A program made the translations under genes and the position numbers. Shown piece after piece: positions 8,944-42,797 of a stretch of 64,000 nucleotides of DNA. The stretch's first letter is position 1. The number at the start of each line of letters is the position of its first letter. Under the pieces are notes generated by a model that ran no database searches, had not been told where the DNA came from, and saw nothing but the letters and a program-made list of their open reading frames with translations. Origin of the DNA: Pelagibius sp. 7325 (GTDB lineage: Bacteria; Pseudomonadota; Alphaproteobacteria; Kiloniellales; Kiloniellaceae); assembly GCF_037652055.1 (NCBI RefSeq), contig NZ_JBBKAH010000001.1, forward strand, positions 66,221-130,220, written 5' to 3'.

Positions 8944-9993
8944 ATGTCCATACAGCAGTCCACAGCCGAGGACCGGGCTTCGCAGGAAGCCACGGACTGG
9001 CTTATCCTGCTGCAGGAAGATCCTGACGATTCGGCCCTCCGGCAAAGGTTCGAGGCTTGGCTGGCGCAGAGTCCGGTGCACCGGCACGCCTGGGCGACCA
9101 CCGAGGTTACGGCTGAGGCGATCAAGGCGGCCCCGCCCGCGTTCGCCGATCGTTGGCAGCCCGCCGTCGCAGCCAGGCGGAAAACGGCATACGTCCAAGC
9201 AACGGCTTCGACGGCGCCGGCCTCTGCCCCGTCCGGCCACCGCCCGTTCAAGCATCGTCTGTTTCAGCGCCGCCGGGCAGCCTTGCCCTTCGCCGCACTC
9301 GCGGCGGCAGCCTGCCTCCTGATCGCGATGCTGCCCGATATCCTGATCCTGCAGCAGGCGGACTACCATACCGGTACGGGCGAGTCCCTGACCGTGCAAC
9401 TGGCGGATGGCAGCACGGTCTGGCTGGGGCCCGAGAGCGCCATCGCCGTCGATTACGATGTGGCGTCGCGCGGCATCCGCCTGCTGACAGGAGAAGCGTT
9501 TTTCGACGTGAAAGCGAATGCCGAGCGGCCGTTCCAGGTCGTGGCCGGGCCGGTACGGACGACCGTCGTCGGGACCGCCTTCGACGTCCTACGCGGCGAT
9601 GACTCCGCCAAGGTCGCGGTCGAACGCGGTATCGTGCGGGTCGATCACACCGACAGCGCACCGCCGGTCTCCGAACGGCTGACCGCAGGCCAGACAATCA
9701 GCGTCACCTGGGCCGGCACGGCATCACGCGGCAAAAGCCCGGCCACAGCGGTCGCGAGTTGGCGCCACGGCCAGCTGATCGCCCAGGACCGGCCGATGGG
9801 CGAAGTGATCGACGCCCTGCGCCGCTATTACAGGGGATCGATCATTCTGACCGATGGCAGCCTCGCCGGCCTGCCGGTGACGGGGATCTATAACCTTTCG
9901 GACCCCGAGGAAGCCCTCCGCGCTGTGGCAGAGGCCCACGGCGCCAAGGTTCGACAGATCACCCCCTGGGTCGTTGTGATCCTCTCGTTGTGA
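8944..9993 (+). CDS. fecR: FecR-family anti-sigma factor / transmembrane sensor
   Basis: 349 aa. N-terminal DUF4880-like ATDWLILLQEDPDD, a TM segment (ALPFAALAAAACLLIAML) and a C-terminal FecR domain. Confidence 0.8.
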   Translation: MSIQQSTAEDRASQEATDWLILLQEDPDDSALRQRFEAWLAQSPVHRHAWATTEVTAEAIKAAPPAFADRWQPAVAARRKTAYVQATASTAPASAPSGHRPFKHRLFQRRRAALPFAALAAAACLLIAMLPDILILQQADYHTGTGESLTVQLADGSTVWLGPESAIAVDYDVASRGIRLLTGEAFFDVKANAERPFQVVAGPVRTTVVGTAFDVLRGDDSAKVAVERGIVRVDHTDSAPPVSERLTAGQTISVTWAGTASRGKSPATAVASWRHGQLIAQDRPMGEVIDALRRYYRGSIILTDGSLAGLPVTGIYNLSDPEEALRAVAEAHGAKVRQITPWVVVILSL

Positions 9994-10152
9994 CAAATTA
10001 AGCAACGAACCCAATATCTTACGCCCATTCCGAAAAAATCTTAGAAATCCGCCCGGCGCCAGCGTTGCCTTAGTATGGGCAGCGAATGACACGCATTCGC
10101 ATTAATGTGAAAAGCATCCGCGCGTCATGCCTGCCCCGACGAATCAACCGAG

Positions 10153-12696
10153 GTGGGGAGACTTTTCGTGAAAATGGGGGCCGTGAAGAGAGGTGCAGGG
10201 GCACAGGATGCGGCGAGTCAGGCTGCGGCAAGGTCGAAAGCAGAGCGCCCGCAAAGCGAGGCGGGCCAGCCGACCCCGCAGGCTTGCCGTGCGAACGCCG
10301 CGCAGACGCGGCGGCGGCGCAGACTGCGCCGGGCGGGATTGGCCGGCGCGGTGAGCGTCACCGCCGCGATGATGGCCGCGCCGGCGATCGCGGCGGATCC
10401 CGCTGCGGCGGGCGTCGAGATCGCGCAACTGAGCGAACGCTTCACCTTCAACATCGCGGCGCAGCCGCTGGCCAGCGCTCTTACACAGTTCGGACAGCAG
10501 TCGGGGCTGCAGGTGACCGTCGACGGCGCCATCGTCCGCGACCAGCGCGTGCCCTCCGTCGCCGGCACCATGACCGCCGAGCAGGCCTTACGCCAACTGC
10601 TGACGGGCAGCGGACTGACGTATCGCCTGTCCGGCAACACCACGGTCGCCATTCAGAAGGCCGCCGCCGATGACGGTGCGGTCATGCTGGACCCGATCGT
10701 CGTGGAGACCCAGGTCGAATCAGCCTACGGGCCGGTTGACGGATATCGGGCCACCCGCTCCGCAACCGGCACGAAGATGAACACGGCGATCATGGACACG
10801 CCGGCATCGGTCCAGGTCGTGCCGCGGCAGGTCCTGGAAGACCAAAAGGCGATCCGCCTGGCCGACGCCTTGCGCAACGTCAGCAGCGTGCACAGCAGCG
10901 GCACCACCGGAAACCGAAGCGAGAACTTCATCGTACGTGGCCTGCCCTCCAGCCGAATCGCCACCGACGGCTTCCTGAGCGCCGCCACCTTCGGCGATGT
11001 CGGCTTTCTCAACACGGGCAACATCGAACGCGTCGAAGTGCTGAAAGGCCCCGCGAGCGTGCTCTACGGGGCGGCCGATCCGGGCGGCCTGATCAACATC
11101 GTCACCAAGAAGCCGGAAGAAGACGCGTTCTATACCTTCAGCGGCACCTACGGCAGCTATGACCTGTACCGCGGCGACATCGACTTCAACGTCCCGCTGA
11201 CGGAGGACGGCACGGTACTGTCACGGCTCAACGCGTCATATCAGAATGCGGACAGCTTCCGGAACTACTTCACGCGTGCCGAACGCTTCAGCATCGCCCC
11301 GTCGCTGACGTGGATGCCGAATGACCGCACCACGGTCGAGTTCAAAGCGGAATACTTTGAGCAAGAGCATCAGTACGACCGCGGGCTGGTCGTCGTCGAC
11401 GGTGATCCGCTGGCACTGCCCATAGACCGCTACCTGGGCGAGCCGGGCGACCGGGCCAAAGCGGATGAACTGCGTGTCCAGGCAGGCATCGAGCACGCCT
11501 TGTCGGACGACTGGACGGTCCGCCTGCGGGCACGCACCACCGACTCAAACTCGAACCCGCAGGACACCTATCCCCTGGGCCTTCAGGTCGACGGCCGGAC
11601 TCTGGACCGCCAATTCTACGTATTCGATCAGCACTTCCAAACCTATGCCGCCGAAGCCGGATTGGAAGGCAAACTGACGACGGCGGACGTCGAACACCAT
11701 CTGCTTTTCGGCCTGGATACCCAGCTCACCCGCTTCCATTCCCAGAACTTCACCGCGACGGCGACGAGCATCGACATCTTCGACCCCGTCTATGGCGGCG
11801 ACATCGGGCCGCTCACCAGCCTGGGTCAGCAGCAGCGCAACATCGATCTCTACGGCGGCTATCTGCAGGACATCGTCTCCATCGGCGAGCAGTGGAAGGT
11901 ATTGGTCGGCGGGCGTTTCGATATCGCCAAGACCCAGTACCAGCGGGGAGAGACCTGGGTCACCGACAAGGTGGACACTCAATTCTCACCGCGTATCGGC
12001 GTGGTCTATCAGCCCATCGAGACCGTGAGCCTTTACGCCAGCTACTCCGAATCCTTTATTCCGCTGCTGAGCGGCCAGAGCGTCGGGGACGAACCCTTGG
12101 AACCGGAGACGGGTACCCAGGTCGAGATCGGCATAAAACACACGGCCTTCGACGAGCGGCTTTCGACGACCTTCGCGCTGTTCCAGCTGACCCGTGAGAA
12201 CGTATCGACGAGTGACCTCGCCAATCCCGGATTCAGCATTCAGATCGGCGAGCAACGCTCCCGAGGCGCCGAATTGGAAGTCGCCGGCGAGGTGCTGCCC
12301 GGCTGGCAGGTGATCGGTTCGCTGTCCTACCTCGATTCCGAGGTCACCAAGGACAATACGTTCTCCGAAGGAAACCGTTTGCCCAACGTGCCGGAATGGA
12401 GCGGCAGCATCTGGAGCACCTACGCCTTGCAGGATCCCACCTTCGAAGGACTGGAACTGGGTGCCGGCGTCTTCGTCGTCGGCAAACGTGAAGGAGACCT
12501 GAACAACAGCTTCACTGTGCCGGGCTATGCCCGCGTCGACCTGATGGCCCGCTACGAGCTGGTAGAGGACGTCGATCTGTCGGTGAACATCTACAATCTG
12601 TTCGACACCGAATACGTCGAGGCATCCGCCAGTGCCCGGGAAATCTATACCGGAGCGCCATTGACGGCTTTGGCAACCCTCTCCGTCCGGTTCTGA
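10153..12696 (+). CDS. TonB-dependent siderophore receptor with N-terminal STN signalling domain (FecA-like)
   Basis: Twin-Arg signal region. The STN domain is FNIAAQPLASALTQFGQQSGLQVTVD. Plug and barrel follow, with a terminal LSVRF aromatic residue. The true start is probably an internal GTG/ATG near 10.28 kb. Confidence 0.85.
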   Translation: MGRLFVKMGAVKRGAGAQDAASQAAARSKAERPQSEAGQPTPQACRANAAQTRRRRRLRRAGLAGAVSVTAAMMAAPAIAADPAAAGVEIAQLSERFTFNIAAQPLASALTQFGQQSGLQVTVDGAIVRDQRVPSVAGTMTAEQALRQLLTGSGLTYRLSGNTTVAIQKAAADDGAVMLDPIVVETQVESAYGPVDGYRATRSATGTKMNTAIMDTPASVQVVPRQVLEDQKAIRLADALRNVSSVHSSGTTGNRSENFIVRGLPSSRIATDGFLSAATFGDVGFLNTGNIERVEVLKGPASVLYGAADPGGLINIVTKKPEEDAFYTFSGTYGSYDLYRGDIDFNVPLTEDGTVLSRLNASYQNADSFRNYFTRAERFSIAPSLTWMPNDRTTVEFKAEYFEQEHQYDRGLVVVDGDPLALPIDRYLGEPGDRAKADELRVQAGIEHALSDDWTVRLRARTTDSNSNPQDTYPLGLQVDGRTLDRQFYVFDQHFQTYAAEAGLEGKLTTADVEHHLLFGLDTQLTRFHSQNFTATATSIDIFDPVYGGDIGPLTSLGQQQRNIDLYGGYLQDIVSIGEQWKVLVGGRFDIAKTQYQRGETWVTDKVDTQFSPRIGVVYQPIETVSLYASYSESFIPLLSGQSVGDEPLEPETGTQVEIGIKHTAFDERLSTTFALFQLTRENVSTSDLANPGFSIQIGEQRSRGAELEVAGEVLPGWQVIGSLSYLDSEVTKDNTFSEGNRLPNVPEWSGSIWSTYALQDPTFEGLELGAGVFVVGKREGDLNNSFTVPGYARVDLMARYELVEDVDLSVNIYNLFDTEYVEASASAREIYTGAPLTALATLSVRF

Positions 12697-12720
12697 CCCC
12701 ATGAGGTCTGCCTGCCCGCG

Positions 12721-13008
12721 ATGACCGCCAAGACCGAAGGCGCCGCCATGGCCCTGCGCATAGCCGTCGGTATTGTCGGCGGCTATGCCCTGGCCTGCGC
12801 GGTGGCCATCTGGATTTCCTATGTCCTGCCCCTGGCCCGGGCCGATGCGGTCCTGACCGGTCAGCTCATCAGCTTCATCGTCTACGCCGGTGCCGTGCTG
12901 TGGGTCTTCGCCGTGCGCAGCGCGCTGCGCGCCACCGTCGGCATTTCGCTGGCGATCCTGGCGTTCAGCGCCCTCGCATGGCTCTGCGCCCCCGCGATCT
13001 CAGCGTGA
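12721..13008 (+). CDS. DUF3649-family small membrane protein
   Basis: 95-aa double-TM protein that conventionally follows TonB receptors and precedes PepSY-TM proteins. Confidence 0.55.
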   Translation: MTAKTEGAAMALRIAVGIVGGYALACAVAIWISYVLPLARADAVLTGQLISFIVYAGAVLWVFAVRSALRATVGISLAILAFSALAWLCAPAISA

Positions 13009-13021
13009 AGGAGGCCGCATC

Positions 13022-14572
13022 ATGAAGGGTGCGTTCCGCCCGTCGATGAGCTGGCTGCACACCTGGGCCGGTCTCGTTGTCGGCTGGGTACTGTTCTTCA
13101 TCTTCCTGACGGGGACCGCCGGCTACTTCGATGCCGAAATCGATCGCTGGATGCAGCCGGAGCGCCCGCTGATCGAGCAGAAGGCAAGCGCCCCCCAGGA
13201 GGCCGACGGCGCGCGCCGCTTCCTGGAACGCCAGGCAGGGAATGCCGAACGCTGGCTCATCGTTCTGTCCGGCGACCGGCTGCCCGACGTCAGGCTGTTC
13301 TGGCGCAACCCGCCGACGGCGGCCGGCGCCGCCGCGGGAGAAGAATACCTGGAGCCGGCCACCGGCAATCCCGTTTCCTACCGCAAAACCGGCGGCGGCC
13401 AGTTGCTGTACAAGATGCACTACCGCCTGCACTACCTGCCCGAGGTAGCCGCCTACTGGCTGGTCGGGCTCTGCACCATGGCGATGCTGGTCGGTATCGT
13501 AACCGGCGTGATCGTTCACAAGAGGATCTTTCGCGACTTCTTCACGCTGCGCCTCGCCAAAGGGCAGCGGTCCTGGCTGGATGCGCACAACGGGCTCAGC
13601 GTCCTCGCCCTGCCTTTTCATCTGATGATCACCTATTCCGGGCTGATGTTCCTAGTCAGTTTCTACATGGCCCCGGTTGTTGTCGCGTCCTACGGACTGG
13701 AGGGCGCCGGCCGGGGCGTTTACTTCGACGAACTGTTCGAACGGGGCACAGGCGTAGCGCGCAGCGGCGAGGCCGCGCCGCTGGCGCCCTTGGGGCCCAT
13801 GGTCGCTGAAGCGGAACACCGCATGGGCGTCGGCGCGGTCTCCTTCATCGATGTCAGCCATCCCGGCGACACCAACGCGCGGGTGGCGGTTACCGGTGGC
13901 GCGCCGCACCCCACGCGCCGGGACCAGCGTTTGCTGTTCGACGGTGTGAGCGGCAGGCTGCTCTCCGAGTCCGGGCCGCGCAGCGCGCCGCTCGTCGTGT
14001 TCGAAAGCCTGCTGGGGCTGCACGAGGGGCTGTTTGCAGGCCCCGTGCTGCGCTGGCTGTATTTTCTCTCAGGCGCCATGGGCACGGCGATGATCGCCGC
14101 CGGGCTGATCCTCTGGACAGTGAAGCGGCGCGCAAGAGCCGGCGATACGACAGGCTTTCGCCTGGTCGAGTGCCTGAACATCGGCACCCTCGCCGGGCTG
14201 CCGATCGCCCTTGCCGCCTACTTCTGGGCCAACCGCCTGATTCCCGTCGGGATCGATGACCGTGCCGCCTGGGAAGGGCACAGTTTGTTCCTCACCTGGG
14301 CCGTGCTGCTGATCCATCCCTTCCTGCGCCCGGCGGCGCGCGCCTGGCGCGAGCAACTGTGGCTCGCCGCCGCGGCCTTTGCCCTGTTGCCGGCGGTGAA
14401 CGCGCTGACGACCGCGCGCCACCTGGGAATCACCCTGCCAGCCGGAATATGGGATCTGGCGGGCATCGACCTGGCCTTCCTGACGACCGGCCTGGCCTTC
14501 GCCGCCGCCGCGCTGGCGGTGACACCGCACACAGGCTCCGCCAGGGCGCCGCGCCGGAGACCGGCCGAATGA
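13022..14572 (+). CDS. PepSY-associated TM helix protein (PiuB-like siderophore-interacting membrane protein)
   Basis: Starts MKGAFRPSMSWLHTWAGLVVGW after a GAAGGAGG RBS. Multiple TM helices, with conserved His residues in the TM segments. Confidence 0.8.
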   Translation: MKGAFRPSMSWLHTWAGLVVGWVLFFIFLTGTAGYFDAEIDRWMQPERPLIEQKASAPQEADGARRFLERQAGNAERWLIVLSGDRLPDVRLFWRNPPTAAGAAAGEEYLEPATGNPVSYRKTGGGQLLYKMHYRLHYLPEVAAYWLVGLCTMAMLVGIVTGVIVHKRIFRDFFTLRLAKGQRSWLDAHNGLSVLALPFHLMITYSGLMFLVSFYMAPVVVASYGLEGAGRGVYFDELFERGTGVARSGEAAPLAPLGPMVAEAEHRMGVGAVSFIDVSHPGDTNARVAVTGGAPHPTRRDQRLLFDGVSGRLLSESGPRSAPLVVFESLLGLHEGLFAGPVLRWLYFLSGAMGTAMIAAGLILWTVKRRARAGDTTGFRLVECLNIGTLAGLPIALAAYFWANRLIPVGIDDRAAWEGHSLFLTWAVLLIHPFLRPAARAWREQLWLAAAAFALLPAVNALTTARHLGITLPAGIWDLAGIDLAFLTTGLAFAAAALAVTPHTGSARAPRRRPAE

Positions 14573-16823: not shown

Positions 16824-16949
16824 GGTCACATCGCTCCCATTTGTGGGCCCTGGACCGAGCCCTTGTTCTTTCGTGGCCGTGCCCGCCCCGGCCTTCACCC
16901 TGAGGAGAGGCCCCAAAGGGGAGCCTCATCCTGAGCCCCCAAAAAGGAG

Positions 16950-16991
16950 CCTCATCCTGAGGAGCGCCGGAACGGCGCGTCTCGAAGGACG
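16950..16991. repeat. half-copy of family-A repeat (cctcatcctgaggag-N-cgtctcgaagg), left boundary of island 1
   Basis: cctcatcctgaggagcgccggaacggcgcgtctcgaaggacg. It is the reverse complement of 21062-21104, and the same arms form complete palindromic units at 40421-40525 and 42695-42797. Confidence 0.7.
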
Positions 16992-17272
16992 AGGCAGCCG
17001 GGCTGCGCCCGGCTTCAACGTCGCGGGGGCCGCCCGCCCCCGCACCCCCGGATTTGCTTTCATTTCCGGGGGTTAGCGGTTCCAGGCAGCCAAAAGCCTT
17101 GACCCGAGAATACGTCCGAGAGCAGGCGAAAAAAAGCCTAGCGACGGAGGGGGAAGAAGGCGTTGAGATGGATCAAGGGGGTATGTTTCTACGCCGCGTC
17201 AAACTGGCCTTGGCGAGTTCAATCGACCCCGCCCATAAGCCTTTGTGGCTGTTTCAGATTCGGCGAAGCGCC

Positions 17273-19219
17273 CTACGCATACCAACTTGGTGGAACTAGG
17301 AATCTACCGCGTCTCCATTCCTCAACTATCGCACGCTCAAACCAGTCCTCATTCAAATGCGCATGATCCAACACAATCAACTGCAATCCGTTGATGACTT
17401 GACACTCGCGATGCATTAGCTCGAACAATGCATGTACAGCATGTCGATCTTTGTCCTCCAAAGGATCTAAGCTTCCTTCTTGGTCACGCTCCGCTGGATA
17501 ATGAGCTTGCGATGGCTGATCGAAAATGAGAACCCCAGGAACTGGTCGATCCCGCTTCCGAAACCACCAATGCAATGCAAGGTACGTCAACACGTGATAG
17601 CCAACCCAATTTTCACCACTACCCATTCGATTGAGTGGAATTGGACCATCATCGGTATCAGCGACGACTGTCAATTTCTTAAGATCAAGCCGCAGCGCAC
17701 TACCACTGTGCTCCAAATCCAACGCCTCAGCATAGATTGACATTTGCTTGCTGATTAAGTTGAGGTAGGTGTCTGTTTTCTGCGCAATTTCATCGATATC
17801 AACAGCCGCTTCAAGAGCTTGCACCCTACGCTTAGCTGCTTCAATCTGGGGCACTAGGTCTACGGCAACATCAGGTGGTCGGATGCCGTCTATAAATGCT
17901 CCGATACGACCCACCACCCGCGCGCGTTCCAATAGAATATCCTGCTGGGCTCTTGCCCGCTCATCTTCAGCAATTGCTCTCGCCAAAGAAGCCTGCGTTT
18001 CCACTAGCGATTTCTCTAATGCGTCGCGCTTACTCGTGAGCTGCTCAAGATGCCTTTGCAGGTGAGGCTGCTCCAGCTCTACCGATTCCAATTGCCTTGT
18101 CACATCAGAAAGCGCCGCTTCGATCTGTATTGATGCTGGCGTTGGAACAGCTAGTTCAGACTCGCAAACGGGACAAGCATGCCCTAAGTCTGCCCCAGAC
18201 TTGAACAAGCCAATCGCGCTAAGCCTAGCGCGCTGCTCGCTGCGTTCGCGAGAGTATGCGCTCTGCTCAGACATCAAGAGTCGCGCTGCTCGCAATTCTT
18301 CCGACGTCTGCTCGAGGGCCTCGCGCAAAGTCCCCTGCTCTTCGCGCAACCGATTAATAGTGGTGCCGAAGTCTGGAAGCGAGACGTTAGTTGCCAAATC
18401 GACCTGACTTGCCGCGCTTAGGACTTGCAGAGTGTCATCAACTACGACCGGCTCAAACTCCTGAGGAACGATATTGACACGCTTGCCGTCATTGATCAGC
18501 CGACGGAGCCTAACCAAGTCAACAACCTGCCGTTCTTCCTGCAGAGATGCCCGCTGCTGCAACTCCGCCAATAACTCCCTAGCCATATCGAGTTCATGCT
18601 GCCGAAGGAAGTGTTGATCATCGACCGCTCCAAGAAAGTATGGCAGGGTATCCTTAATGGCTTGCGGGATAAATTGCTCACCTTGTCGATGGAAGAGTCG
18701 TTCTCGATTATCTATTTCGTCCTGCTTCTGAAAACATAAAAAAAGAGCGTGTCGGATAGTTGCTTGCAGCGGCAAACGAGTGCCGCTTTGGGGGCGATGT
18801 TCATTTTCCGTTATGCCAACGAACCGTGTCAGCATTCGGACAATTTCACCCTCAACCACATTCGATTTGAGTTCGTCGAACACCGGCGGAGCTTCAAAGG
18901 CACCTCTTCGAATGTAAATTTCGCCACCACGATCGGTGCCGGGCCCCGGATTCTTCCGAGCAATAAACAGAACATCCTCACCCTTAACAACCTCAAGACC
19001 GAACCACGACACATAGCGCCGAACAATACCCTCAGCAACGTGACAATGACTGCGACCTAGACAGTAGTCGATAATATCAATAATTGCCGACTTTCCCGTC
19101 TTCGACTCCCCCGTAATGACGTTCAACCCCTCCATCTTAAACGGGAGGGTCCTTTGTTCCCCTTGGTGCGAGTACAGAACTATCGACTTGATTCTCATGC
19201 TCACGGTTTTATACCCCAA
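17273..19219 (-). CDS. SMC/Rad50-like P-loop ABC ATPase with coiled-coil and CxxC hook; candidate ABC-three-component (ABC-3C) system ATPase
   Basis: 648 aa. N-terminal strand plus Walker A (LNVITGESKTGKSAIIDIIDYCLG). Long heptad-rich middle with CPVCESEL. C-terminal LIFDQPSQ (Walker B/D-loop-like, DUF3732-like tail). Low GC. Confidence 0.7.
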   Translation of the reverse strand: MGYKTVSMRIKSIVLYSHQGEQRTLPFKMEGLNVITGESKTGKSAIIDIIDYCLGRSHCHVAEGIVRRYVSWFGLEVVKGEDVLFIARKNPGPGTDRGGEIYIRRGAFEAPPVFDELKSNVVEGEIVRMLTRFVGITENEHRPQSGTRLPLQATIRHALFLCFQKQDEIDNRERLFHRQGEQFIPQAIKDTLPYFLGAVDDQHFLRQHELDMARELLAELQQRASLQEERQVVDLVRLRRLINDGKRVNIVPQEFEPVVVDDTLQVLSAASQVDLATNVSLPDFGTTINRLREEQGTLREALEQTSEELRAARLLMSEQSAYSRERSEQRARLSAIGLFKSGADLGHACPVCESELAVPTPASIQIEAALSDVTRQLESVELEQPHLQRHLEQLTSKRDALEKSLVETQASLARAIAEDERARAQQDILLERARVVGRIGAFIDGIRPPDVAVDLVPQIEAAKRRVQALEAAVDIDEIAQKTDTYLNLISKQMSIYAEALDLEHSGSALRLDLKKLTVVADTDDGPIPLNRMGSGENWVGYHVLTYLALHWWFRKRDRPVPGVLIFDQPSQAHYPAERDQEGSLDPLEDKDRHAVHALFELMHRECQVINGLQLIVLDHAHLNEDWFERAIVEEWRRGRFLVPPSWYA

Positions 19220-19704
19220 CTAGATAAGATAGTTGACGTCGTACCCGCCTTTGCGAACCATCGCCCAAGCAGACGAGCGCTCGAGACACAGCCCTGGGCA
19301 TCATATGTCAGGCTATGGATGAACTTCTGTGACACAGCCAATTTTTGTGCACCGAGTTGCAAGCCGCCGTCTGTCGAAATTGTCAGAGCTCCTTTATCAA
19401 TGCAGAAGCGAACCGCTTCCTGAAGCGTCGGCCGAAGACCCTTTGCTCTCTGAACATACCCGACCATGACTTCGGGGTTCCGTTCGCGCCAAGTGTACAT
19501 TGATGTTAAGGTCGTTGAAGGGAGTGCATTCCGCGTCCTTGCATGCAATGCAATCGGCAACCCGCAAAATGGGAGCACAAATGGACAGGGAGCAGCAGTA
19601 CTTTTCTGATACTCCTTCACGAACTCGATGGCGAGCATTCCACAGAATGCCGGATTAAAAAGTGTTGCCTCTTCCTTCGGCCTAGCATCCCATTTTGGAA
19701 GCAT
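19201..19704 (-). CDS. hypothetical protein; candidate middle component of the three-gene system
   Basis: 167-aa ORF overlapping the downstream ATPase start by 19 bp and abutting the upstream gene stop. Low GC, no recognisable motif. Confidence 0.55.
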   Translation of the reverse strand: MLPKWDARPKEEATLFNPAFCGMLAIEFVKEYQKSTAAPCPFVLPFCGLPIALHARTRNALPSTTLTSMYTWRERNPEVMVGYVQRAKGLRPTLQEAVRFCIDKGALTISTDGGLQLGAQKLAVSQKFIHSLTYDAQGCVSSARLLGRWFAKAGTTSTILSSWGIKP

Positions 19705-20897
19705 TAGCCATCACCTTTTGATTTCTTCTCAGAGAACAAGGCCTGATAGTCGGGATGCCAACCCACCCTCACACTGTCTGCAAGAATCTGATACGAACCG
19801 GTACAAAGCCAACGCTCATGTCTATTTCGAAAAGGTAGCTCGCTCCGGTTGGCCCAATGATATAAGGTGCGCCCAAAAACTTTTTTTAGGTCGTCTGATG
19901 ACAAGTCAGCAGTATCTTGCTGAGCCAATGATTCACTCTGCCAGCGTTCGATAAGCGCTTCGTCATAGCGGCTCGATTCACCGTCAAGAAGGACATTCTC
20001 TCGTGCCCACGCAGTTCGTTGCGCTGAGGCTCGGTAATAGTCGCGCTTTCCCAATTCGACGACGGGGTCAGAGAGACCAACGCACTTCATCTGTTTGACG
20101 AAGATGTGGTTATCAGATGCGAGTTCCGCGTCCGGAACTTCTGAGACCTCTTGGTGGAGCATGAGATCACCCATACGAAATTGAGAAGCGATCTCGTCGA
20201 TTTTCTGTCGAAGCGACAGAAGAGATATCGGCGGTGCCGACGCATCGGTTAGAGCTTTGACGATAGTCGCAAACCACCAACCTTCCAAGTGATCGACGAG
20301 CTTTGCAACGTGTTGTGCCGGGGAAGCGAAAGCTAGTCTTTCTTCAATCTCGCTGCGCACATCAGTAATTGTTGGAGCATTATCATGGACCACAATTGCT
20401 GCAACGAGATCTTTTCTCATCTGACTCGGCAAAGACAGGAAAGCTTCCCGGGCGACTGTTGTCGCCTTGTTGCTAGATGAAGCAGCGATTCGACTCAAGA
20501 TATCGAGAGCTTCTGCTTCGTCATTATCATTGCGACCAACTCGCAACTTCGCGGCTACAGAATCTTTCGGCGCCGTAGCAGTTGTGATAATCGAAAACTT
20601 GCACTCATACAGGGCTTGAGGATTCGAAACGATCTGTTCGCTCCAGATTCGCAACGTCTTCCAGAGATCTGAGCTAGCATCCGTGAGACTAGATGCAATA
20701 GAATGATGTTTGAGTTGAAACTGCGATGTTATTCCGGCTGCAGTCTCAAAAGAGACATCGTCAAACTTTTCGACGCACAAAAGACGATTCGGGAATCGAG
20801 CGCTTTCTTCAATGGCGAGTAGAAGAGCTTCTCTGCACTGATACAGATAACCGACCATAGATGCAGCCGCGCTGTACTTAGACGGACCATTTGTCAT
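19704..20897 (-). CDS. hypothetical protein with N-terminal PD-(D/E)xK-like nuclease motif; candidate effector of the three-gene system
   Basis: 397 aa. The N-terminus GYLYQCREALLLAIE...CVEKFDDVSFE...FQLKHH resembles the E-x(n)-DD-x(n)-QxK REase-like core seen in Cap4/DUF4297-type effectors. The rest is alpha-helical and unassigned. Confidence 0.55.
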   Translation of the reverse strand: MTNGPSKYSAAASMVGYLYQCREALLLAIEESARFPNRLLCVEKFDDVSFETAAGITSQFQLKHHSIASSLTDASSDLWKTLRIWSEQIVSNPQALYECKFSIITTATAPKDSVAAKLRVGRNDNDEAEALDILSRIAASSSNKATTVAREAFLSLPSQMRKDLVAAIVVHDNAPTITDVRSEIEERLAFASPAQHVAKLVDHLEGWWFATIVKALTDASAPPISLLSLRQKIDEIASQFRMGDLMLHQEVSEVPDAELASDNHIFVKQMKCVGLSDPVVELGKRDYYRASAQRTAWARENVLLDGESSRYDEALIERWQSESLAQQDTADLSSDDLKKVFGRTLYHWANRSELPFRNRHERWLCTGSYQILADSVRVGWHPDYQALFSEKKSKGDG

Positions 20898-21061
20898 CTC
20901 AGCTGAGGCTCTTACACATGTTCGCCCAGAAAACGAACTTTATATTACCGCATTATCGCAATGGTTGTCATGGTTAATGTATGCGCCAGCTCGTTCGATT
21001 TGGGCGATCATCCTCTCGCCGCGTCGCTCTCTTGGACAGGAATTGGAAAATCAAGGTCACG

Positions 21062-21104
21062 CCGCATCCTTCGAGACGCGCCTTCGGCGCTCCTCAGGAT
21101 GAGG
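21062..21104. repeat. half-copy of family-A repeat (cgtctcgaagg-N-ctcctcaggatgagg), right boundary of island 1
   Basis: ccgcatccttcgagacgcgccttcggcgctcctcaggatgagg, the reverse complement of 16950-16991. Confidence 0.7.
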
Positions 21105-21126
21105 CTCAGGGGGTGGGGAGAGGGCT

Positions 21127-21490: not shown

Positions 21491-21699
21491 GCGGGGCCTC
21501 CCCCATACTCCTGCCTTCGCCGAAGCGGCTCCGGGCAGGCAGGTCGAGACGCCGCCTTCCGGCGGCTCCTCAGGATGATGTGGAAGGGGGATACGGCAGG
21601 GCCCGGGCCGCGTCCGGTTGAGGCGGGCGCGCTTCCATGATCCAATGCAGCCGGATGCGGCAGGGCGGGGGCGGCCAGGCGGAGATCCGGCGGTGAAGG

Positions 21700-32943: not shown

Positions 32944-33016
32944 TCGCGATGGCGGGAGTTGAACCCGCGACAGCTGGAGTGAAAATCCAGTGCTCTAACC
33001 CACTGAGCTACATCCA
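32944..33016 (-). tRNA. tRNA-like gene, anticodon UUC (Glu by anticodon; Val-like body), acceptor stem only 4 bp
   Basis: Minus-strand read: D-arm GCTCAGTGGGTTAGAGC, anticodon arm CTGGA-TTTTCAC-TCCAG, T-arm GCGGGTTCAACTCCCGC. The 5' ATGGATG and 3' CATCGCG acceptor strands pair at only 4 positions, and there is no encoded CCA. Confidence 0.5.
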
Positions 33017-33092
33017 TGGCGCCGAACACGGGAATTGAACCCGTGACCCCCGGATCGACAATCCGGTGCTCTCACCACTGAGCTAGTTCGGC
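33017..33092 (-). tRNA. tRNA-Asp (anticodon GUC)
   Basis: Minus-strand read GCCGAACTAGCTCAGTGGTGAGAGCACCGGATTGTCGATCCGGGGGTCACGGGTTCAATTCCCGTGTTCGGCGCCA. Perfect 7-bp acceptor stem, GTC anticodon, encoded CCA. Confidence 0.85.
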
Positions 33093-35519: not shown

Positions 35520-36926
35520 CTATTTCGTTGAAGCCAGTGAACGCTCTATTTTATGAAGCCAGCCCTCGATCTCCTGAGTCGCATTCTCATGGGGCGACGC
35601 TTTGCGAATCTCATCAAGTTCAGAACGTGCAATGGCTACTGTCCGCCAAAGATTCTGGTCGGGGTTCTGACCCAGTAATCTGTCCCTTATTCCTTGTTTG
35701 ACCCGAGATCTATCGCTTTTCGAAAGACTCTCTGGAGCCATCAAGAAAATGAGCCTTTGTGCGATCTGCTGAAACCTTGGATCGTTGAACTTCCGAATGA
35801 GGCTTGCCCTTTGAGACCAAGGTGTTTCTGCAAAATTTCGCATCACCATTTCGTCATGTTTGCCTGGAAACCCTTCGAAAATCCTTTGCTCTAAAGCTCT
35901 TGGTTCCGGCCACTCTTCTCTCATTTTCGTTGCGAGCTTCACTAGGATGGCCCTTCGCTCGGGGGACGCGAGAAACGCAGCTTCTTCTGCCACTCTCTTG
36001 GATGGCACAATCCCAAGGTGCGCTCCGGCCTCATACTGGCTAGCAGCAATAGGAAACATGTTCTCCTTGAAACGTCGAATCCGAAATGTATGGCTCGTGA
36101 TGAGCATCTCCTGTGATGAGATCGTATTCGAGAAGAATCTTCGCCAGTCGGCCTCCAATTTGGCCACAAACTTGGCTGATTTCTGTTTGTTATCAGAACC
36201 GATTGGAAGCCCCCACCAACCAGGGCGGCCGTCCTTAGAAGGTTCTGCAAAAAAGATAGGCTTCCCTGTATTCACTAGCCGAGACGCAAATTCTCGATCG
36301 GAACAGTCCAAGAACAGGGCCCATAGCGCTTGGGACCTCGATGCGATTTTCTTGCAAATGTGAATGACGGCCAGCACATCTCCCAAGGCATCATGCGCAT
36401 CGGTGTGAGCGTATCCATTCAATGGGGCAAGCCGATCCAAACGAAATATAGGGCGACCAGATGCAATGTTAGGCACTACAAGTGCATGCGGTGAGATCCT
36501 CGACATAGCACGCACTAGAGGCAAAACGTCCGCCCTAGCGTTGCCATGAGTGACGGTTAGGTAAGGCGGGTTCAATGTTTGCCACAGCGCCCGTTGCAGA
36601 AGCGGCTCATCGAACTGGAATGAGTTGTACCCAATGAAGAGTGCAGGAGACCAGGATCGCAACCTCTCCTGTATACTCGCCATCATATCGGGAAATTGTG
36701 GCAGATTAGGGTTGTCAATTTGACTTGGCGAAATGCCGGTAACGATCATCGCACTGGGCGACGGGACTATCCATGGCAATCGTCGGCACCTGATATTTAT
36801 GCGATCAAGCTCTTTAAAGCTCTTGTCGGTCAATATGGCCGCAAACTGAATAATTTGATCAAACTCAACATTCGTTCCGGTTGTTTCGGTATCATAAAAT
36901 ACAAAATTTCGAGTATCGCCAGACAC
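35520..36926 (-). CDS. exodeoxyribonuclease I (SbcB)-like DEDDh 3'-5' exonuclease
   Basis: 468 aa. Exo I motif FYDTETTG, Exo II FIGYNSFQFDE, Exo III HTDAHDALGDV, plus a long C-terminal helical/SH3-like region collinear with E. coli ExoI. Low GC. Confidence 0.8.
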   Translation of the reverse strand: MSGDTRNFVFYDTETTGTNVEFDQIIQFAAILTDKSFKELDRINIRCRRLPWIVPSPSAMIVTGISPSQIDNPNLPQFPDMMASIQERLRSWSPALFIGYNSFQFDEPLLQRALWQTLNPPYLTVTHGNARADVLPLVRAMSRISPHALVVPNIASGRPIFRLDRLAPLNGYAHTDAHDALGDVLAVIHICKKIASRSQALWALFLDCSDREFASRLVNTGKPIFFAEPSKDGRPGWWGLPIGSDNKQKSAKFVAKLEADWRRFFSNTISSQEMLITSHTFRIRRFKENMFPIAASQYEAGAHLGIVPSKRVAEEAAFLASPERRAILVKLATKMREEWPEPRALEQRIFEGFPGKHDEMVMRNFAETPWSQRASLIRKFNDPRFQQIAQRLIFLMAPESLSKSDRSRVKQGIRDRLLGQNPDQNLWRTVAIARSELDEIRKASPHENATQEIEGWLHKIERSLASTK

Positions 36927-36936
36927 ATTATCGCTC

Positions 36937-38499
36937 TCAATAATATGAATATGGCGGAGGTTCGACGCCCTCTAGGCCAAATGTATAGTAGTATTTGCGC
37001 GCAGCTCGCCAGCCTCGAACAAAGCTAGGGAGACGCGGGTTCGGGCAATTTGGGCCACGCCATGCTCTCTTGTCGAGCCATTGGCCGAGGATGAGTTCCT
37101 CGGCCGAGGGCGAGAGGCCTTTTCGCTTGTACTTGATCTTCAGAATGCGCTGCCTCTTCCTCATTGCAAGCCGTAGGCTCACAAGCAACCAGCGATCCAA
37201 CTCCTTAAGCGTTTCAGCGTCTTCAAGAAGGGCGTAAAATCCCATCAAGCCCCGCATCTCGCGTAGCTTGTCGCCACCGTTGAGAAATTTAGTGATCTCT
37301 TCCTCTTCGAGTCCGCCATAGAGGTATCCTCGCAACTCAAGAACGAGTCCAAGAAGGTCCCAGTCGTATGGCTTGCGTACCGTGCGGCAGCGGTTCTTAT
37401 TGAATCCAAATTTTTTAGGATACTGAATCAGATAGACTTGTATAAGCCGTGACATTTTCGCGATTATACGTGCCCGGACATGATCGGGGATCTTAAGGCC
37501 GCCCTTGGTAAACCGATATCCAAGATAGTCGAATCCAGAATAACTTCTAATTTCCGCTTCATCTTTGCCAATGATAGCGATTCCGGGCGATTTCTTCTCA
37601 TTTATTATGAGGCCACTGTTCTGGCAGTGCTCGATAAACGTCTCTTCAAGTTCCTCCGCTTCAGCGTAGGTCGAGCAAAGGGCAACTACGTCGTCCGCGT
37701 ACCTGACAAAGCGTCCTGATTTCCGTTCCAAGGAACGATCAAGCTCGTGGTTGGCGAGATTCGCAAGAAGAAGTGAGACAGACGAGCCTTGCGGCGTGCC
37801 AATGTGCCGCCTCGCGAAATCTCCAATTAGATAGTCAGAAACGCTCGCAAACTGGTGTCGCATGAACTCCTTTAGTACGAAGCGCTCATGGGGCGTAACA
37901 GCTACAAGCTCTCTATCGTCAATACATCGCTCCATGTATCGAGTTGGGATAGTGTCGAAGTATTTTTGAAAATCGATCTGCACGGCAAACAATCTTTGAT
38001 CAGTCATGAACCCTTTCAGGGCCAAGATAGCATCAAACACATCACGTTCAGGGTGGTAAGCGTAAGAAAAGGGCGAAAGTCTCTTGATATTCCGATCCCT
38101 GGCCCTTCGAAGCACCACGTTTGCCAGCGCCGCATCTGGGATGGCAAAAGCCATAATCTCCCTGACTCCGCCTTGAGGCTTAGGAATCTGATACCTGACC
38201 GCCGGTACCGGCTCGTAGGTGGCATCAAGGACCTTTTTCCAAATCGTCTTTGCGATGATGTTAGCGTTTCTCGCGCAATGGGTAGGATCAAAGTGTCGAT
38301 GAACTTTCGCCAGCGAGGATGCTGGCTTCGGCAGTCCTGCTTTCAATCCAGTCCGCTTCTCAAATTTTTGCCGATCCTGACGCGCCTTTGCATCGCGGCC
38401 ATTGTTTCGCCGCCCTGCGCGCCGGCAAAGTCTTTTGATTTCCTGTTTTAGAGCTTTTTCCATGAGGGCGGCGAGGGGTCTTAGATCAAGGGTTTCCAC
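36937..38499 (-). CDS. reverse transcriptase (retron/group-II-intron-like RT fold, no maturase/endonuclease; unclassified defence-type RT)
   Basis: 520 aa. RT motifs are 0 VRYQIPKPQGGVREI, 1/2 AFAIPDAALANVVL, A FAVQIDFQKYFDTIP, B' IGTPQGSSVSLLLANL, C VRYADDVVAL and the thumb-like GFDYLGYRF. A ~150-aa helical C-terminal extension follows. Low GC, 10-bp gap to the ExoI-like gene. Confidence 0.85.
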   Translation of the reverse strand: METLDLRPLAALMEKALKQEIKRLCRRAGRRNNGRDAKARQDRQKFEKRTGLKAGLPKPASSLAKVHRHFDPTHCARNANIIAKTIWKKVLDATYEPVPAVRYQIPKPQGGVREIMAFAIPDAALANVVLRRARDRNIKRLSPFSYAYHPERDVFDAILALKGFMTDQRLFAVQIDFQKYFDTIPTRYMERCIDDRELVAVTPHERFVLKEFMRHQFASVSDYLIGDFARRHIGTPQGSSVSLLLANLANHELDRSLERKSGRFVRYADDVVALCSTYAEAEELEETFIEHCQNSGLIINEKKSPGIAIIGKDEAEIRSYSGFDYLGYRFTKGGLKIPDHVRARIIAKMSRLIQVYLIQYPKKFGFNKNRCRTVRKPYDWDLLGLVLELRGYLYGGLEEEEITKFLNGGDKLREMRGLMGFYALLEDAETLKELDRWLLVSLRLAMRKRQRILKIKYKRKGLSPSAEELILGQWLDKRAWRGPNCPNPRLPSFVRGWRAARKYYYTFGLEGVEPPPYSYY

Positions 38500-39456
38500 T
38501 GACGAAGCGTACCTAAGGGCTTATCGTCACCCCTCAGCGCATTGGTGCCTCGACACCAGGTAACTTGACCCCTCGCCTAGGCTACTACGCCATTCAAAAA
38601 AAGTGTCGAGATTAGCTGGCGACGTCAAGCTATTTGAGCGTTAACAACTGGAAGAAAAATGAAAAACTGCCATAGACCAGTCTGCTAGGCGAACAAAAGG
38701 TTAGCCAGAAAGGGGCCTGCATGCCATGACGAGCGTGTTGCCAAGTACATAGCAACGATCTTGGATCTCGTTACTTATCAGGCGGCAATCGCCTCGACCC
38801 GCGTTCTATACGCGCCCGCCTGCGGCTACACAATTCGACTACTCTGCTGGTCACAATCCGCGGAGCACCGGGCGTGACCGTGCTGCCCAAGTTGGTCGCA
38901 ACAACGACACCGATCGCCTTCTGTGAGATCGCTAAGCCAATTACGCAGTGCCAGATTGGCCTGATCAGCCGTTCTATGGATTTGCCCGGTCCAGCAATGC
39001 TCGCCTTTGCAGATTTCGCCCCATTCCACGTGCCAGCAAGGAAAGGAACCTGCTGACGGACTTCTAGCGGGAGTCGAGGCGAATGATCGCTGCTGCTGCC
39101 AACTGTTTCTCAGAACTCCAGTCTGAATTTGGCATGATCCGCTCCGGCTCAACTTGAGTCCCGTGGCCCGGCTGCGGGCAGACCGGCGTCCAGCCTTAGC
39201 GAGGACGCTTCCCCCAAATACAAAACCGCGCCCTTCGGTCCCTCTCGAACTGAGGGTGAAGGACGCGGTGGAAGCGTCGGATGCCTGCTTGTCTGTCCGT
39301 CGTGCCGGCGACTGCTTTTGTGGCTGCTTTTCGCTTCTGCTTTTGCTGCTCTCCTGAAGGGTTCCTTCCCTTCGGCACGGGCCTGCCTGGCTGCCAGATG
39401 ACCGGCGCCTGCGTATCAGGCGTTGCTTGACTGAGGCTTTGTGCTTGGGAGTTTGG

Positions 39457-39624
39457 CTAGCTGTCCATGTGTCCCGCGATTTCGTCCTTGATCCGGAGTT
39501 TTTCGCGTTTAAGTTCAATAATCCGGAGATCGTCGGGATGCGGCCTGTGTTCTTCCTCGTCGATTGCGTTTTCGATAGCCGCGTGCTTGGTTCGCAACGA
39601 CGCGATACGCTCATCTGCTGGCAT
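39457..39624 (-). CDS. DUF465 (YdcH-like) small protein
   Basis: MPADERIASLRTKHAAIENAIDEEEHRPHPDDLRIIELKREKLRIKDEIAG. A paralogue lies at 42432-42647. Confidence 0.6.
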   Translation of the reverse strand: MPADERIASLRTKHAAIENAIDEEEHRPHPDDLRIIELKREKLRIKDEIAGHMDS

Positions 39625-40420: not shown

Positions 40421-40525
40421 CATCCTTCGAGACGGCTGCTGCGCAGCCTCCTCAGGATGAGGTCAATCATTTTATGTTCCACCCTCATCCTGAGGAGCCG
40501 CCGCAAGGCGGCGTCTCGAAGGATG
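40421..40525. repeat. complete palindromic family-A unit (MITE/REP-like): arm - 20-bp AT-rich core - inverted arm
   Basis: ccatccttcgagacg..ctcctcaggatgagg / tcaatcattttatgttccac / cctcatcctgaggag..cgtctcgaaggatgg. Confidence 0.75.
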
Positions 40526-42694: not shown

Positions 42695-42797
42695 CATCCT
42701 TCGAGACGGCGCTGACGCGCCTCCTCAGGATGAGGTAAGACTATGAAATGATTGACCTCATGCTGAGGAGCACGCGAGCGCGTGCGTCTCGAAGCAC
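42695..42797. repeat. complete palindromic family-A unit (MITE/REP-like)
   Basis: catccttcgagacg..ctcctcaggatgagg / taagactatgaaatgattga / cctcatgctgaggag..cgtctcgaagcacg. Confidence 0.75.

What the first reader, a model, noticed from the sequence alone, without database searches (positions are those of the whole stretch)
17273..19219. Rad50-like CxxC hook inside the coiled coil of the island ATPase
The 648-aa protein has the N-terminal ABC ATPase strand and Walker A (GESKTGKS). A roughly 350-residue heptad-rich insert follows, containing CPVCESEL near its middle, in the position of the Rad50/SbcC zinc hook. The C-terminus carries LIFDQPSQ (Walker B/D-loop-like). The Walker A and B halves are therefore split by an antiparallel coiled coil, as in SMC-type ATPases, but the protein is much shorter and sits in a defence-like operon.
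Basis: seen in the sequence. Interest (0 to 1): 0.6.

Follow-up and report, generated by a model that had tools for sequence, protein, structure and literature searches.

The report
Lamassu LmuB zinc hook, already known
The CxxC motif in the middle of this ATPase's coiled coil is real and conserved, but it is the already described zinc hook of LmuB, the Rad50-like sensor of the Lamassu anti-phage system, so this is an ordinary new copy of a known system.

Summary
The minus-strand ORF 17273..19219 encodes an ABC ATPase. Its Walker A (GESKTGKS) and Walker B (LIFDQ) halves are separated by a ~300-residue helical insert. A single CPVC lies at the exact midpoint of that insert.

It is the third gene of a three-gene, low-GC island (50.6% vs 66.6% GC). 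All three genes match Lamassu models:
- LmuA: Cap4-like nuclease plus CTD7.
- LmuC: MC3.
- LmuB: DUF3732; PADLOC LmuB 7e-123.

All three have solved cryo-EM homologues (9hqu, 9ny5, 9uxh). The closest one, Salmonella LmuB, has CPMC aligned to this CPVC.

The motif is invariant in 78 clade members and present in 139 of 145 family representatives. It is deleted only in the Vibrio-type clade.

An AlphaFold2 model puts it in the loop between two long helical arms. Its top fold matches are Lamassu LmuB chains, followed by Rad50.

The literature already describes the LmuB zinc hook, shows that defence is lost when it is mutated, and describes the natural Walker B E-to-Q change.

Corrections:
- The gene is on the minus strand.
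- The likely start is the ATG at 19198, giving 641 aa.
- The insert is ~300 residues, not ~350.

Interest is low.

The parts
19704..20897 (-). lmuA: effector, 397 aa. N-terminal Cap4-like PD-(D/E)xK nuclease domain (about residues 1-260, window 20118-20897) and C-terminal CTD7 oligomerisation/docking domain (residues 266-386, window 19740-20102).
   Evidence: Pfam CTD7 5.9e-32. PADLOC LmuA PDLC03848 4.2e-53 over residues 8-385. A profile of 30 orthologues hits Salmonella LmuA 9hqu_C at 7e-37 and V. cholerae LmuA 9nxx_A at 2.9e-33, full length, and DUF4297 (Cap4-type) 9c1m_A at 4.9e-4. 15 of 30 orthologues weakly match Pfam Cap4_nuclease; the window protein itself does not.
20706..20771 (-). 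Putative LmuA nuclease catalytic residues: E43, D46, D47 (EKFDD, 20757-20771) and Q61, K63, H64 (QLKH, 20706-20717).
   Evidence: All six are invariant in 30 orthologues. K63 aligns with the Lys that differs between 9hqu_C (IQSK) and the K-to-A mutant chain 9hqx_A (IQSA).
19201..19704 (-). lmuC: middle component, 167 aa. Its start overlaps the lmuA stop (TAATG).
   Evidence: Pfam MC3 4.3e-43. PADLOC LmuC 9.1e-13. PDB chains named 'Lamassu C'/'LmuC': 9uxh_D 5.4e-5, 9ny5_C 6.2e-5, 9hqu_D 0.039. Junction sequence.
17273..19198 (-). lmuB: Rad50/SMC-like ABC ATPase sensor, 641 aa from the ATG at 19198.
   Evidence: Pfam DUF3732 1.5e-51. PADLOC LmuB PDLC03859 7.4e-123 over residues 1-639. PDB 9hqu_A 1.9e-59 and 9ny5_D 8.8e-47, full length. 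Foldseek: 9uxh_F 5e-36, 9hqu_A 2.6e-35.
19088..19111 (-). LmuB Walker A / P-loop, GESKTGKS (residues 30-37).
   Evidence: G30, G35 and K36 are conserved in 144-145 of 145 representatives.
18215..18619 (-). Ascending coiled-coil arm (residues 194-328), with helix breaks at 224-227, 241-252 and 265-277.
   Evidence: DSSP of the AlphaFold2 model. Heptad and periodicity test. The break at 265-277 matches folding point FP1 (aa 266-276) reported for Salmonella LmuB.
18134..18214 (-). Hook loop (residues 329-355), IGLFKSGADLGHACPVCESELAVPTPA. The CPVC zinc-hook motif is at 18164-18175 (residues 342-345).
   Evidence: A non-helical loop between the two arms, with single bridge residues at 341 and 348 and pLDDT 51-69. 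C342, P343 and C345 are invariant in 78 sequences. CxxC in 139 of 145 representatives and CPxC in 45 of 49 genome loci. Aligned to CPMC of 9hqu_A.
17723..18133 (-). Descending coiled-coil arm (residues 356-492), with breaks at 440-448 and 466-467.
   Evidence: DSSP. Strongest 3.5-residue periodicity at 356-439. The breaks roughly mirror those of the ascending arm about the CPVC: mirrors 435-446 and 460-463.
17507..17623 (-). C-terminal head motifs: signature-like GSGEN (17609-17623) and Walker B plus D-loop LIFDQPSQ (17507-17530), with Gln in place of the catalytic Glu. The H-loop LDHA lies at 17360-17371.
   Evidence: D560-Q561 and H612 are present in 145 of 145 representatives. The natural E-to-Q change is described in PMC10586767; the pattern hhhhD[Q/S/T/E] is given in PMC12663957.
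16947..16995 (.). REP-like palindromic element at the lmuB-distal border of the low-GC island. It is the inverted partner of 21061-21107.
   Evidence: Inverted repeats I1 and I2: 23 nt at 100% and 22 nt at 91% complementarity. The core CCTCATCCTGAGGAG occurs 8 times in the window against 0.14 expected.
21061..21107 (.). REP-like palindromic element at the lmuA-proximal border of the island. A promoter-like site at 20971-20942 (minus strand) lies between it and lmuA.
   Evidence: GC rises from ~0.47 to ~0.68 across 20.9-21.1 kb.

Best explanation
The 17.2-20.9 kb island is a complete short (type II) Lamassu anti-phage/anti-plasmid system of the Cap4-CTD7-MC3 sub-family. It sits in Pelagibius sp. 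7325 and is arranged lmuA-lmuC-lmuB on the minus strand. The protein in the finding is LmuB, the Rad50-like sensor.

**LmuB architecture**
- Its ABC head is formed from residues 1-190 and 493-641.
- Residues 194-492 fold back as a ~20 nm antiparallel coiled coil.
- The CPVC at the turn (residues 342-345) is half of a zinc hook. Two protomers each contribute two cysteines to one Zn site, which joins the LmuB dimer at the end far from the heads.

**Proposed mechanism, by homology with the solved Salmonella and Vibrio complexes**
1. The resting complex is LmuA1-LmuB2-LmuC1.
2. The LmuB coiled coils are folded. The hook-proximal region, together with LmuC, holds the CTD7 domain of one LmuA monomer, which keeps the nuclease monomeric and inactive.
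3. DNA ends or hairpins made during phage or plasmid replication bind the LmuB heads. ATP-driven head engagement opens the complex and releases LmuA.
4. ATP hydrolysis is slow because Walker B is D-Q rather than D-E.
5. Free LmuA tetramerises through CTD7. Paired Cap4 domains then cut DNA indiscriminately, which aborts the infection.

**Shown here:** gene content and order, motif presence and conservation, the helix-loop-helix topology, and homology to solved Lamassu chains.

**Inferred from homologues:** zinc binding, stoichiometry, DNA-end sensing, LmuA release and tetramerisation, and the defence phenotype.
For: **Family matches for all three genes**
- Pfam: CTD7, MC3, DUF3732.
- PADLOC: LmuA 4e-53, LmuC 9e-13, LmuB 7e-123.
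- All three proteins have solved Lamassu counterparts.
- Foldseek ranks six Lamassu LmuB chains first (5e-36 to 1e-26), then Rad50, JetC and SMC heads.

**The hook**
- CPVC aligns with CPMC of Salmonella LmuB.
- It is invariant in the clade, present in 139 of 145 representatives and in 45 of 49 loci.
- It lies in the loop between helical arms 194-328 and 356-492, at the exact midpoint of the insert.

**ATPase and nuclease residues**
- Walker B D-Q is invariant.
- The LmuA catalytic set E43, D46, D47, Q61, K63, H64 is invariant, and K63 aligns to the K-to-A site of the solved mutant.

**Operon and context**
- The lmuA-lmuC-lmuB order is conserved in essentially all related loci that have enough flank.
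- The genes are translationally coupled.
- The island is low-GC (0.506 vs 0.666), consistent with horizontal acquisition.

**Literature**
- The zinc hook, ATP-binding and nuclease mutants all lose defence. The sequestration and tetramer mechanism, and the name of the Cap4-CTD7-MC3 sub-family, come from 10.1101/2025.03.14.643221.
- CxxC distribution, DNA-end sensing and LmuA tetramers come from PMC12663957.
Against: - No experiment exists for this locus.
- Identity to the solved LmuBs is only 22-25%.
The apex position rests on secondary structure, arm symmetry and the alignment to solved chains, not on a measured distance.
- pLDDT in the hook loop is low (51-69), as expected for a monomer modelled without zinc or a partner.
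- In the Salmonella map the zinc atom itself could not be resolved.
- The window LmuA does not itself reach any Pfam Cap4_nuclease match. The Cap4 assignment comes from profile-level and orthologue-level evidence.
- The heptad signal is only moderate (z = 2.4).
Confidence: 0.9

Rival explanations
1. The CxxC region is mainly a docking platform for LmuC and the LmuA CTD7 domain, rather than a zinc-mediated dimerisation hook. The cysteines would serve a local structural role, and dimerisation would come mostly from coiled-coil and partner contacts.
For: In the Salmonella structure, LmuA and LmuC sit next to the hook motifs and contact both LmuB subunits, and zinc density could not be discerned. 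The V. cholerae clade has lost the CxxC yet still forms a functional LmuA1B2C1 complex whose coiled-coil apex contacts LmuC and the LmuA CTD (deletions seen).
Against: There are two cysteines per protomer with an invariant CPxC spacing, as in Rad50/SbcC hooks. The motif is conserved in 139 of 145 representatives. The hook motifs of the two protomers are juxtaposed in the solved structure, and the hook mutant loses defence. The two roles are not mutually exclusive.
Confidence: 0.12
2. The protein is a compact genuine Rad50/SbcC DNA-repair ATPase, not a defence sensor.
For: It has a CxxC hook, a split ABC head and a coiled coil. There are weak N-terminal matches to Rad50, SMC and RecN models, and Rad50 structures appear among the fold matches.
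Against: The NCBIfam Rad50 score is 24 bits against a cut-off of 1000. No Mre11/SbcD-type partner is present; the partners are LmuA and LmuC. The C-terminal half is DUF3732. Lamassu chains outrank Rad50 by more than 20 orders of magnitude in E-value. The gene lies in a low-GC island.
Confidence: 0.02
3. The operon is an inactive remnant: a decayed Lamassu that no longer functions.
For: Two public gene calls truncate LmuB (437 aa and 617 aa). No strong promoter or terminator signals exceed the shuffled background.
Against: All three ORFs are intact and full length relative to homologues. Every catalytic and structural motif checked is retained. The truncated calls reflect start-codon choice, not sequence lesions.
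Confidence: 0.05

Closest known systems
Salmonella enterica Lamassu LmuACB (PDB 9hqu/9hqx/9hr5; Li et al., bioRxiv 10.1101/2025.03.14.643221), Cap4-CTD7-MC3 sub-family
   Same: Same three components. LmuB aligns full length (E 1.9e-59) and carries a CPxC hook at the same alignment position. The LmuA CTD7 and the catalytic Lys align. The helix break at 265-277 matches FP1 at aa 266-276. The hook, Walker A and nuclease are each required for defence in that system.
   Different: Only ~25% identical in LmuB. LmuC similarity is marginal (E 0.039). The host is a marine alphaproteobacterium with a 67% GC genome. This copy is untested experimentally.
Vibrio cholerae DdmABC / Lamassu Vc-Cap4 (PDB 9ny5, 9nyg, 9nxx, 9uxh; PMC12663957)
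   Same: Same sub-family and operon logic. LmuB matches at E 8.8e-47, LmuC at ~6e-5, and the LmuA profile at 2.9e-33. Walker B is D-Q. The mechanism is DNA-end sensing followed by LmuA tetramer activation.
   Different: The Vibrio LmuB has lost the zinc hook. The protein here retains a single CPVC.
Rad50 / SbcC (Mre11-Rad50, SbcCD)
   Same: An ABC head split by an antiparallel coiled coil with an apical CxxC zinc hook, and DNA-end recognition. It is the proposed evolutionary source of LmuB. Structural matches follow those to Lamassu.
   Different: It is much longer and partners an Mre11/SbcD phosphoesterase. It has a catalytic Glu in Walker B and works in repair, not abortive defence. Family thresholds are not met here.
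ABC-3C systems (Pfam naming: DUF3732 ATPase, MC1-n middle components, CTD1-12 effectors)
   Same: This is the same system under its earlier bioinformatic name. RefSeq already annotates the three proteins this way.
   Different: None; it is a synonym of Lamassu.

Membership tests
Lamassu (short / type II, Cap4-CTD7-MC3 sub-family) | LmuB: SMC/Rad50-like ABC ATPase of ~650 aa with a DUF3732 C-terminal head half | tested here: met
   Pfam DUF3732 1.5e-51. PADLOC LmuB 7.4e-123 over the full length. PDB LmuB chains 1.9e-59 and 8.8e-47. Foldseek top six hits are Lamassu LmuB.
Lamassu (short / type II, Cap4-CTD7-MC3 sub-family) | LmuC middle component of MC3 type, encoded between lmuA and lmuB | tested here: met
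   Pfam MC3 4.3e-43. PADLOC LmuC 9.1e-13. PDB LmuC chains. The position in the operon is shown and is conserved in related loci.
Lamassu (short / type II, Cap4-CTD7-MC3 sub-family) | LmuA with a CTD7 C-terminal domain | tested here: met
   Pfam CTD7 5.9e-32. 30 of 30 orthologues match CTD7. It aligns to the Salmonella LmuA CTD.
Lamassu (short / type II, Cap4-CTD7-MC3 sub-family) | LmuA N-terminal Cap4-type nuclease domain with a catalytic Lys | tested here: met
   The profile matches full-length Cap4-type LmuAs at 7e-37 and 2.9e-33, and DUF4297 at 4.9e-4. 15 of 30 orthologues touch Pfam Cap4_nuclease. E43, D46, D47, Q61, K63 and H64 are invariant. K63 aligns to the K-to-A site. Caveat: the window protein alone gives no Pfam Cap4 match.
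Lamassu (short / type II, Cap4-CTD7-MC3 sub-family) | Walker B of the form hhhhD[Q/S/T/E] (natural E-to-Q) with an intact Walker A | tested here: met
   VLIFDQ at residues 556-561 and GESKTGKS at 30-37. D-Q is present in 145 of 145 representatives. The definition is from PMC12663957.
Lamassu (short / type II, Cap4-CTD7-MC3 sub-family) | CxxC zinc hook at the coiled-coil apex (present in many but not all LmuB) | tested here: met
   CPVC at residues 342-345 lies in the inter-arm loop, at the insert midpoint, aligned to CPMC of 9hqu_A, and is conserved. Tested at the sequence and predicted-topology level only.
Lamassu (short / type II, Cap4-CTD7-MC3 sub-family) | Zinc coordination by four cysteines from two protomers | not testable with these tools
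   Needs a multimer model with metal, or biochemistry. Zinc was also unresolved in the Salmonella map.
Lamassu (short / type II, Cap4-CTD7-MC3 sub-family) | Protection against phage or plasmids by abortive infection | not testable with these tools
   Shown only for homologues.
Rad50 / SbcC | Family-level sequence match (NCBIfam/TIGRFAM Rad50 or SbcC thresholds) | tested here: not met
   Rad50_Sulf scores 24.3 bits against a cut-off of 1000, and only over residues 1-60.
Rad50 / SbcC | Adjacent Mre11/SbcD phosphoesterase partner | tested here: not met
   The neighbours are LmuC and LmuA upstream and acetyl-CoA synthetase downstream.
Rad50 / SbcC | Split ABC head plus antiparallel coiled coil plus apical CxxC hook | tested here: met
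   This feature is shared, which is why the protein works like Rad50 without being a member.
Canonical SMC (Smc, MukB, JetC) | Globular hinge dimerisation domain at the coiled-coil apex | tested here: not met
   Only a 27-residue loop with CPVC separates the arms. There is no SMC hinge match in Pfam.

The most novel reading that the evidence does not exclude
The most novel reading not excluded concerns the cassette, not the protein. The Lamassu operon forms a minimal 4.1-kb low-GC unit with no integrase or transposase. It is bracketed precisely by an inverted pair of a genome-wide REP-like palindromic element (16947-16995 and 21061-21107). A DRT9 island 15 kb away also has a pair of these elements near one border. 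REP-like elements might therefore act as landing pads or recombination substrates for gain and loss of small defence cassettes in this genome. A smaller possibility is that this invariant-hook clade could be used to separate the hook's dimerisation role from its role in sequestering LmuC and LmuA, by comparison with the hook-less Vibrio clade.
Probability: 0.1. Interest if true: 0.35.

Novelty: already known. Interest (0 to 1): 0.1.

Why it matters
It matters little beyond annotation.

- **Scan validation:** a sequence-only reader correctly recognised Rad50-like architecture. The feature is the published LmuB zinc hook of Lamassu, whose structure, mutational requirement and phylogenetic distribution are already described.
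- **Locus relabelling:** the Pelagibius locus can be relabelled from 'DUF3732 / ABC-3C' to Lamassu (Cap4-CTD7-MC3).
- **Start-site correction:** the RefSeq LmuB start should move upstream to the ATG at window 19198. This restores 24 conserved N-terminal residues of the ATPase head.
- **Genome context:** the window holds at least two defence systems, Lamassu and DRT9, each on its own low-GC islet.

Tried and rejected
- **+ strand reading:** translating the given coordinates on the + strand gives only stops. The gene is on the minus strand.
- **Contig lookup:** The look-up of encoding contigs for the 437-aa NCBI call (P0049) found nothing on record. The listing of cluster members gave the host and accessions instead.
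- **Pfam on LmuA N-terminus:** scanning residues 1-260 alone at E up to 10 gave no family. Scans of orthologues and a profile search were needed to reach Cap4/DUF4297.
- **Alignment problems:** the first mafft run on 145 representatives timed out and was repeated in a faster mode. Two align_proteins attempts failed because the lmuA segments of L027 and L029 contain stops.
- **Model geometry:** model coordinates are not exposed. The head-to-hook distance and arm packing could not be measured, so I used DSSP, arm symmetry and Foldseek alignment instead.
- **Rad50/SbcC and canonical SMC membership:** considered and rejected (see the membership tests).
- **tRNA or integrase-linked island insertion:** considered, but no tRNA or recombinase lies next to the Lamassu island.
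- **Promoter and terminator scans:** counts were not clearly above the shuffled background.
- **Source genome:** it is not in the species-representative genome set (best hit 72%), so no empty-site comparison was possible.
Full report
**1. Observation**

The coordinates 17273..19219 hold an ORF on the minus strand: 648 aa from a TTG. The + strand reading is full of stops.

- Walker A GESKTGKS at residues 30-37.
- A single CxxC (CPVC) at residues 342-345.
- A signature-like GSGEN at residues 526-530.
- LIFDQPSQ at residues 557-564.
- An H-loop LDHA at residues 610-613.

The ATG at 19198 lies 2 nt after the stop of the upstream gene (TGAGCATG). The 24 residues that follow it are conserved in homologues and modelled as beta strands at pLDDT ~95. 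I therefore take it as the start.

RefSeq instead starts at an internal TTG (617 aa). That TTG follows a GGAGG-like sequence, which probably explains the choice. A second NCBI call starts at Met205 (437 aa).

**2. What it is**

The ORF is the last of three co-directional, translationally coupled genes. They sit in a low-GC islet: 0.506 GC against 0.666 for the rest of the window.

Family matches:

| Gene | Window (minus strand) | Length | Pfam | PADLOC |
|---|---|---|---|---|
| lmuA | 19704..20897 | 397 aa | CTD7 of ABC-3C, 5.9e-32 | LmuA, 4.2e-53 |
| lmuC | 19201..19704 | 167 aa | MC3, 4.3e-43 | LmuC, 9.1e-13 |
| lmuB | 17273..19198 | 641 aa | DUF3732, 1.5e-51 | LmuB, 7.4e-123, full length |

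All three have solved counterparts in Lamassu cryo-EM complexes:
- LmuB: 9hqu_A at 1.9e-59 and 9ny5_D at 8.8e-47.
- LmuA: 9hqu_C and 9nxx_A.
- LmuC: 9uxh_D, 9ny5_C and 9hqu_D.

The host is Pelagibius sp. 7325 (Rhodovibrionaceae, Alphaproteobacteria). RefSeq already names the proteins 'ABC-three component system protein', 'three component ABC system middle component' and 'DUF3732 domain-containing protein'.

**3. The hook**

Sequence evidence:
- In the alignment to Salmonella LmuB, the query's CPVC sits directly on that protein's CPMC. The V. cholerae-type LmuB has no cysteines there.
- C342, P343 and C345 are invariant in 78 homologues of 51-73% identity.
- In 49 LmuBs taken from genome loci (23-72% identity), CPxC is present in 45. 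It is cleanly deleted in four, from the Vibrio, Aeromonas and Bacillota group.
- Among 145 representatives (32-53% identity) of a family with 2,469 representative clusters, CxxC is present in 139 and CPxC in 131.

Structural evidence:
- The AlphaFold2 model has mean pLDDT 82.1.
- It shows an ascending helical arm at residues 194-328, a non-helical loop at 329-355 that contains CPVC, and a descending arm at 356-492.
- The head halves lie on either side.
- The hook centre (343.5) equals the insert midpoint (343.0).
- Breaks in the ascending arm mirror breaks in the descending arm about that centre.
- The break at 265-277 corresponds to folding point FP1 (aa 266-276) of Salmonella LmuB.
- The heptad signal is moderate (z = 2.4; 3 of 200 shuffles reach it). 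The 356-439 arm has a clean 3.5-residue periodicity.
- Foldseek ranks Lamassu LmuB chains first (5e-36 to 1e-26), then Rad50, SbcC, JetC and SMC heads.

**4. ATPase motifs**

The following are conserved in 143-145 of 145 representatives:
- Walker A residues G30, G35 and K36.
- Q-loop Q159.
- Walker B D560 followed by Q561.
- H-loop H612.

The Gln in place of the catalytic Glu is a described Lamassu feature. It is thought to slow ATP hydrolysis.

**5. Effector**

- The LmuA C-terminal domain is CTD7.
- The N-terminal 260 residues give no Pfam match on their own.
- A profile of 30 orthologues matches the Cap4-type LmuAs of Salmonella (7e-37) and V. cholerae (2.9e-33) over the full length, and a DUF4297 protein at 4.9e-4.
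- 15 of 30 orthologues touch Pfam Cap4_nuclease.
- E43, D46, D47, Q61, K63 and H64 are invariant.
- K63 aligns to the residue that differs between the wild-type and K-to-A Salmonella chains.

The system is therefore of the Cap4-CTD7-MC3 sub-family named by Li et al..

**6. How it most likely works**

These steps are inferred from the solved homologues:
1. LmuB dimerises. The zinc hooks are juxtaposed and the coiled coils are folded.
2. Together with LmuC, the hook-proximal coils hold the CTD7 of a single LmuA, which keeps the nuclease monomeric.
3. DNA ends or hairpins bind the heads. ATP-dependent head engagement opens the complex and frees LmuA.
4. Free LmuA tetramerises through CTD7, which forms an active Cap4 cleavage site.
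5. That site degrades DNA and aborts the infection.

In the Salmonella system the nuclease, the zinc hook and the ATP-binding/head-engagement motifs are each required for protection.

For this locus, only the parts list, motif conservation, topology and homology are shown. Everything else is inferred.

**7. Context**

- The lmuA-lmuC-lmuB order is conserved in essentially all related loci that have enough flank. These span Alphaproteobacteria, Acidobacteriota, Bacteroidota, Bacillota and one Nitrosopumilaceae MAG.
- The islet is bracketed by an inverted pair of a REP-like element (16947-16995 and 21061-21107). The core of that element occurs 8 times in the window against 0.14 expected.
- No tRNA, integrase or transposase lies next to the islet.
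- The downstream neighbour is acetyl-CoA synthetase.

**8. Comparison and novelty**

- The LmuB zinc hook ('CPxCG or similar', in many but not all homologues) is stated in a 2023 review (PMC10586767).
- Its distribution across the LmuB phylogeny (0, 1 or 2 copies in short Lamassu) is given in PMC12663957.
- Its functional requirement is shown in 10.1101/2025.03.14.643221.
- The protein works like Rad50/SbcC but fails Rad50 membership. It scores 24 bits against a cut-off of 1000, has no Mre11/SbcD partner, and is about half the length.
- It has no SMC hinge.

**Verdict**

The feature is already known, and this locus is an ordinary, intact Lamassu system. Interest is 0.1.

Noticed in passing
window 35520-38499 (minus strand); low-GC patch ~35.5-39.7 kb: A second defence islet. 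A Drt9-type reverse transcriptase (36937..38499; PADLOC Drt9 6e-156; Pfam RVT_1) is followed by an SbcB-like DEDDh exonuclease (35520..36926; PADLOC RTasSbcB 7e-125; Pfam RNase_T plus Exonuc_X-T_C). GC is 0.50-0.56. An unassigned 262-aa ORF lies at 38826..39614.
   Followed up: partly
window 16893-16995, 21061-21107, 21566-21580, 40448-40497, 42721-42770: A REP-like palindromic element with core CCTCATCCTGAGGAG occurs 8 times against 0.14 expected by chance. Inverted copies bracket the Lamassu islet exactly, and a head-to-head pair lies near the DRT9 islet border.
   Followed up: partly
window 32948-33014 (minus strand): Rfam finds a second tRNA-like match (58.8 bits, model positions 4-67 of 71) immediately next to tRNA-Asp (33017-33092). 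ARAGORN did not call it. It may be a second tRNA or a partial tRNA copy.
   Followed up: no
window 19127-19198 (minus strand); lmuB 5' end: Public annotations truncate LmuB. RefSeq WP_340115254.1 starts at an internal TTG preceded by GGAGG (617 aa) and so loses 24 conserved N-terminal residues. Another NCBI call starts at Met205 (437 aa) and so loses the whole Walker A half.
   Followed up: yes
L027:4305-5462 and L029:386-1561: In two related loci (an Eremiobacterota MAG and a Bacteroidales MAG) the lmuA-matching segment contains in-frame stops (7 and 1). This may reflect decayed effectors or frame drift in the tblastn segment.
   Followed up: no
window 8944-14572 (+ strand): An iron-uptake cluster lies upstream: a FecR-like sensor (8944..9993), a TonB-dependent receptor with an STN domain (10153..12696) and a PepSY-TM protein (12890..14572).
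   Followed up: no
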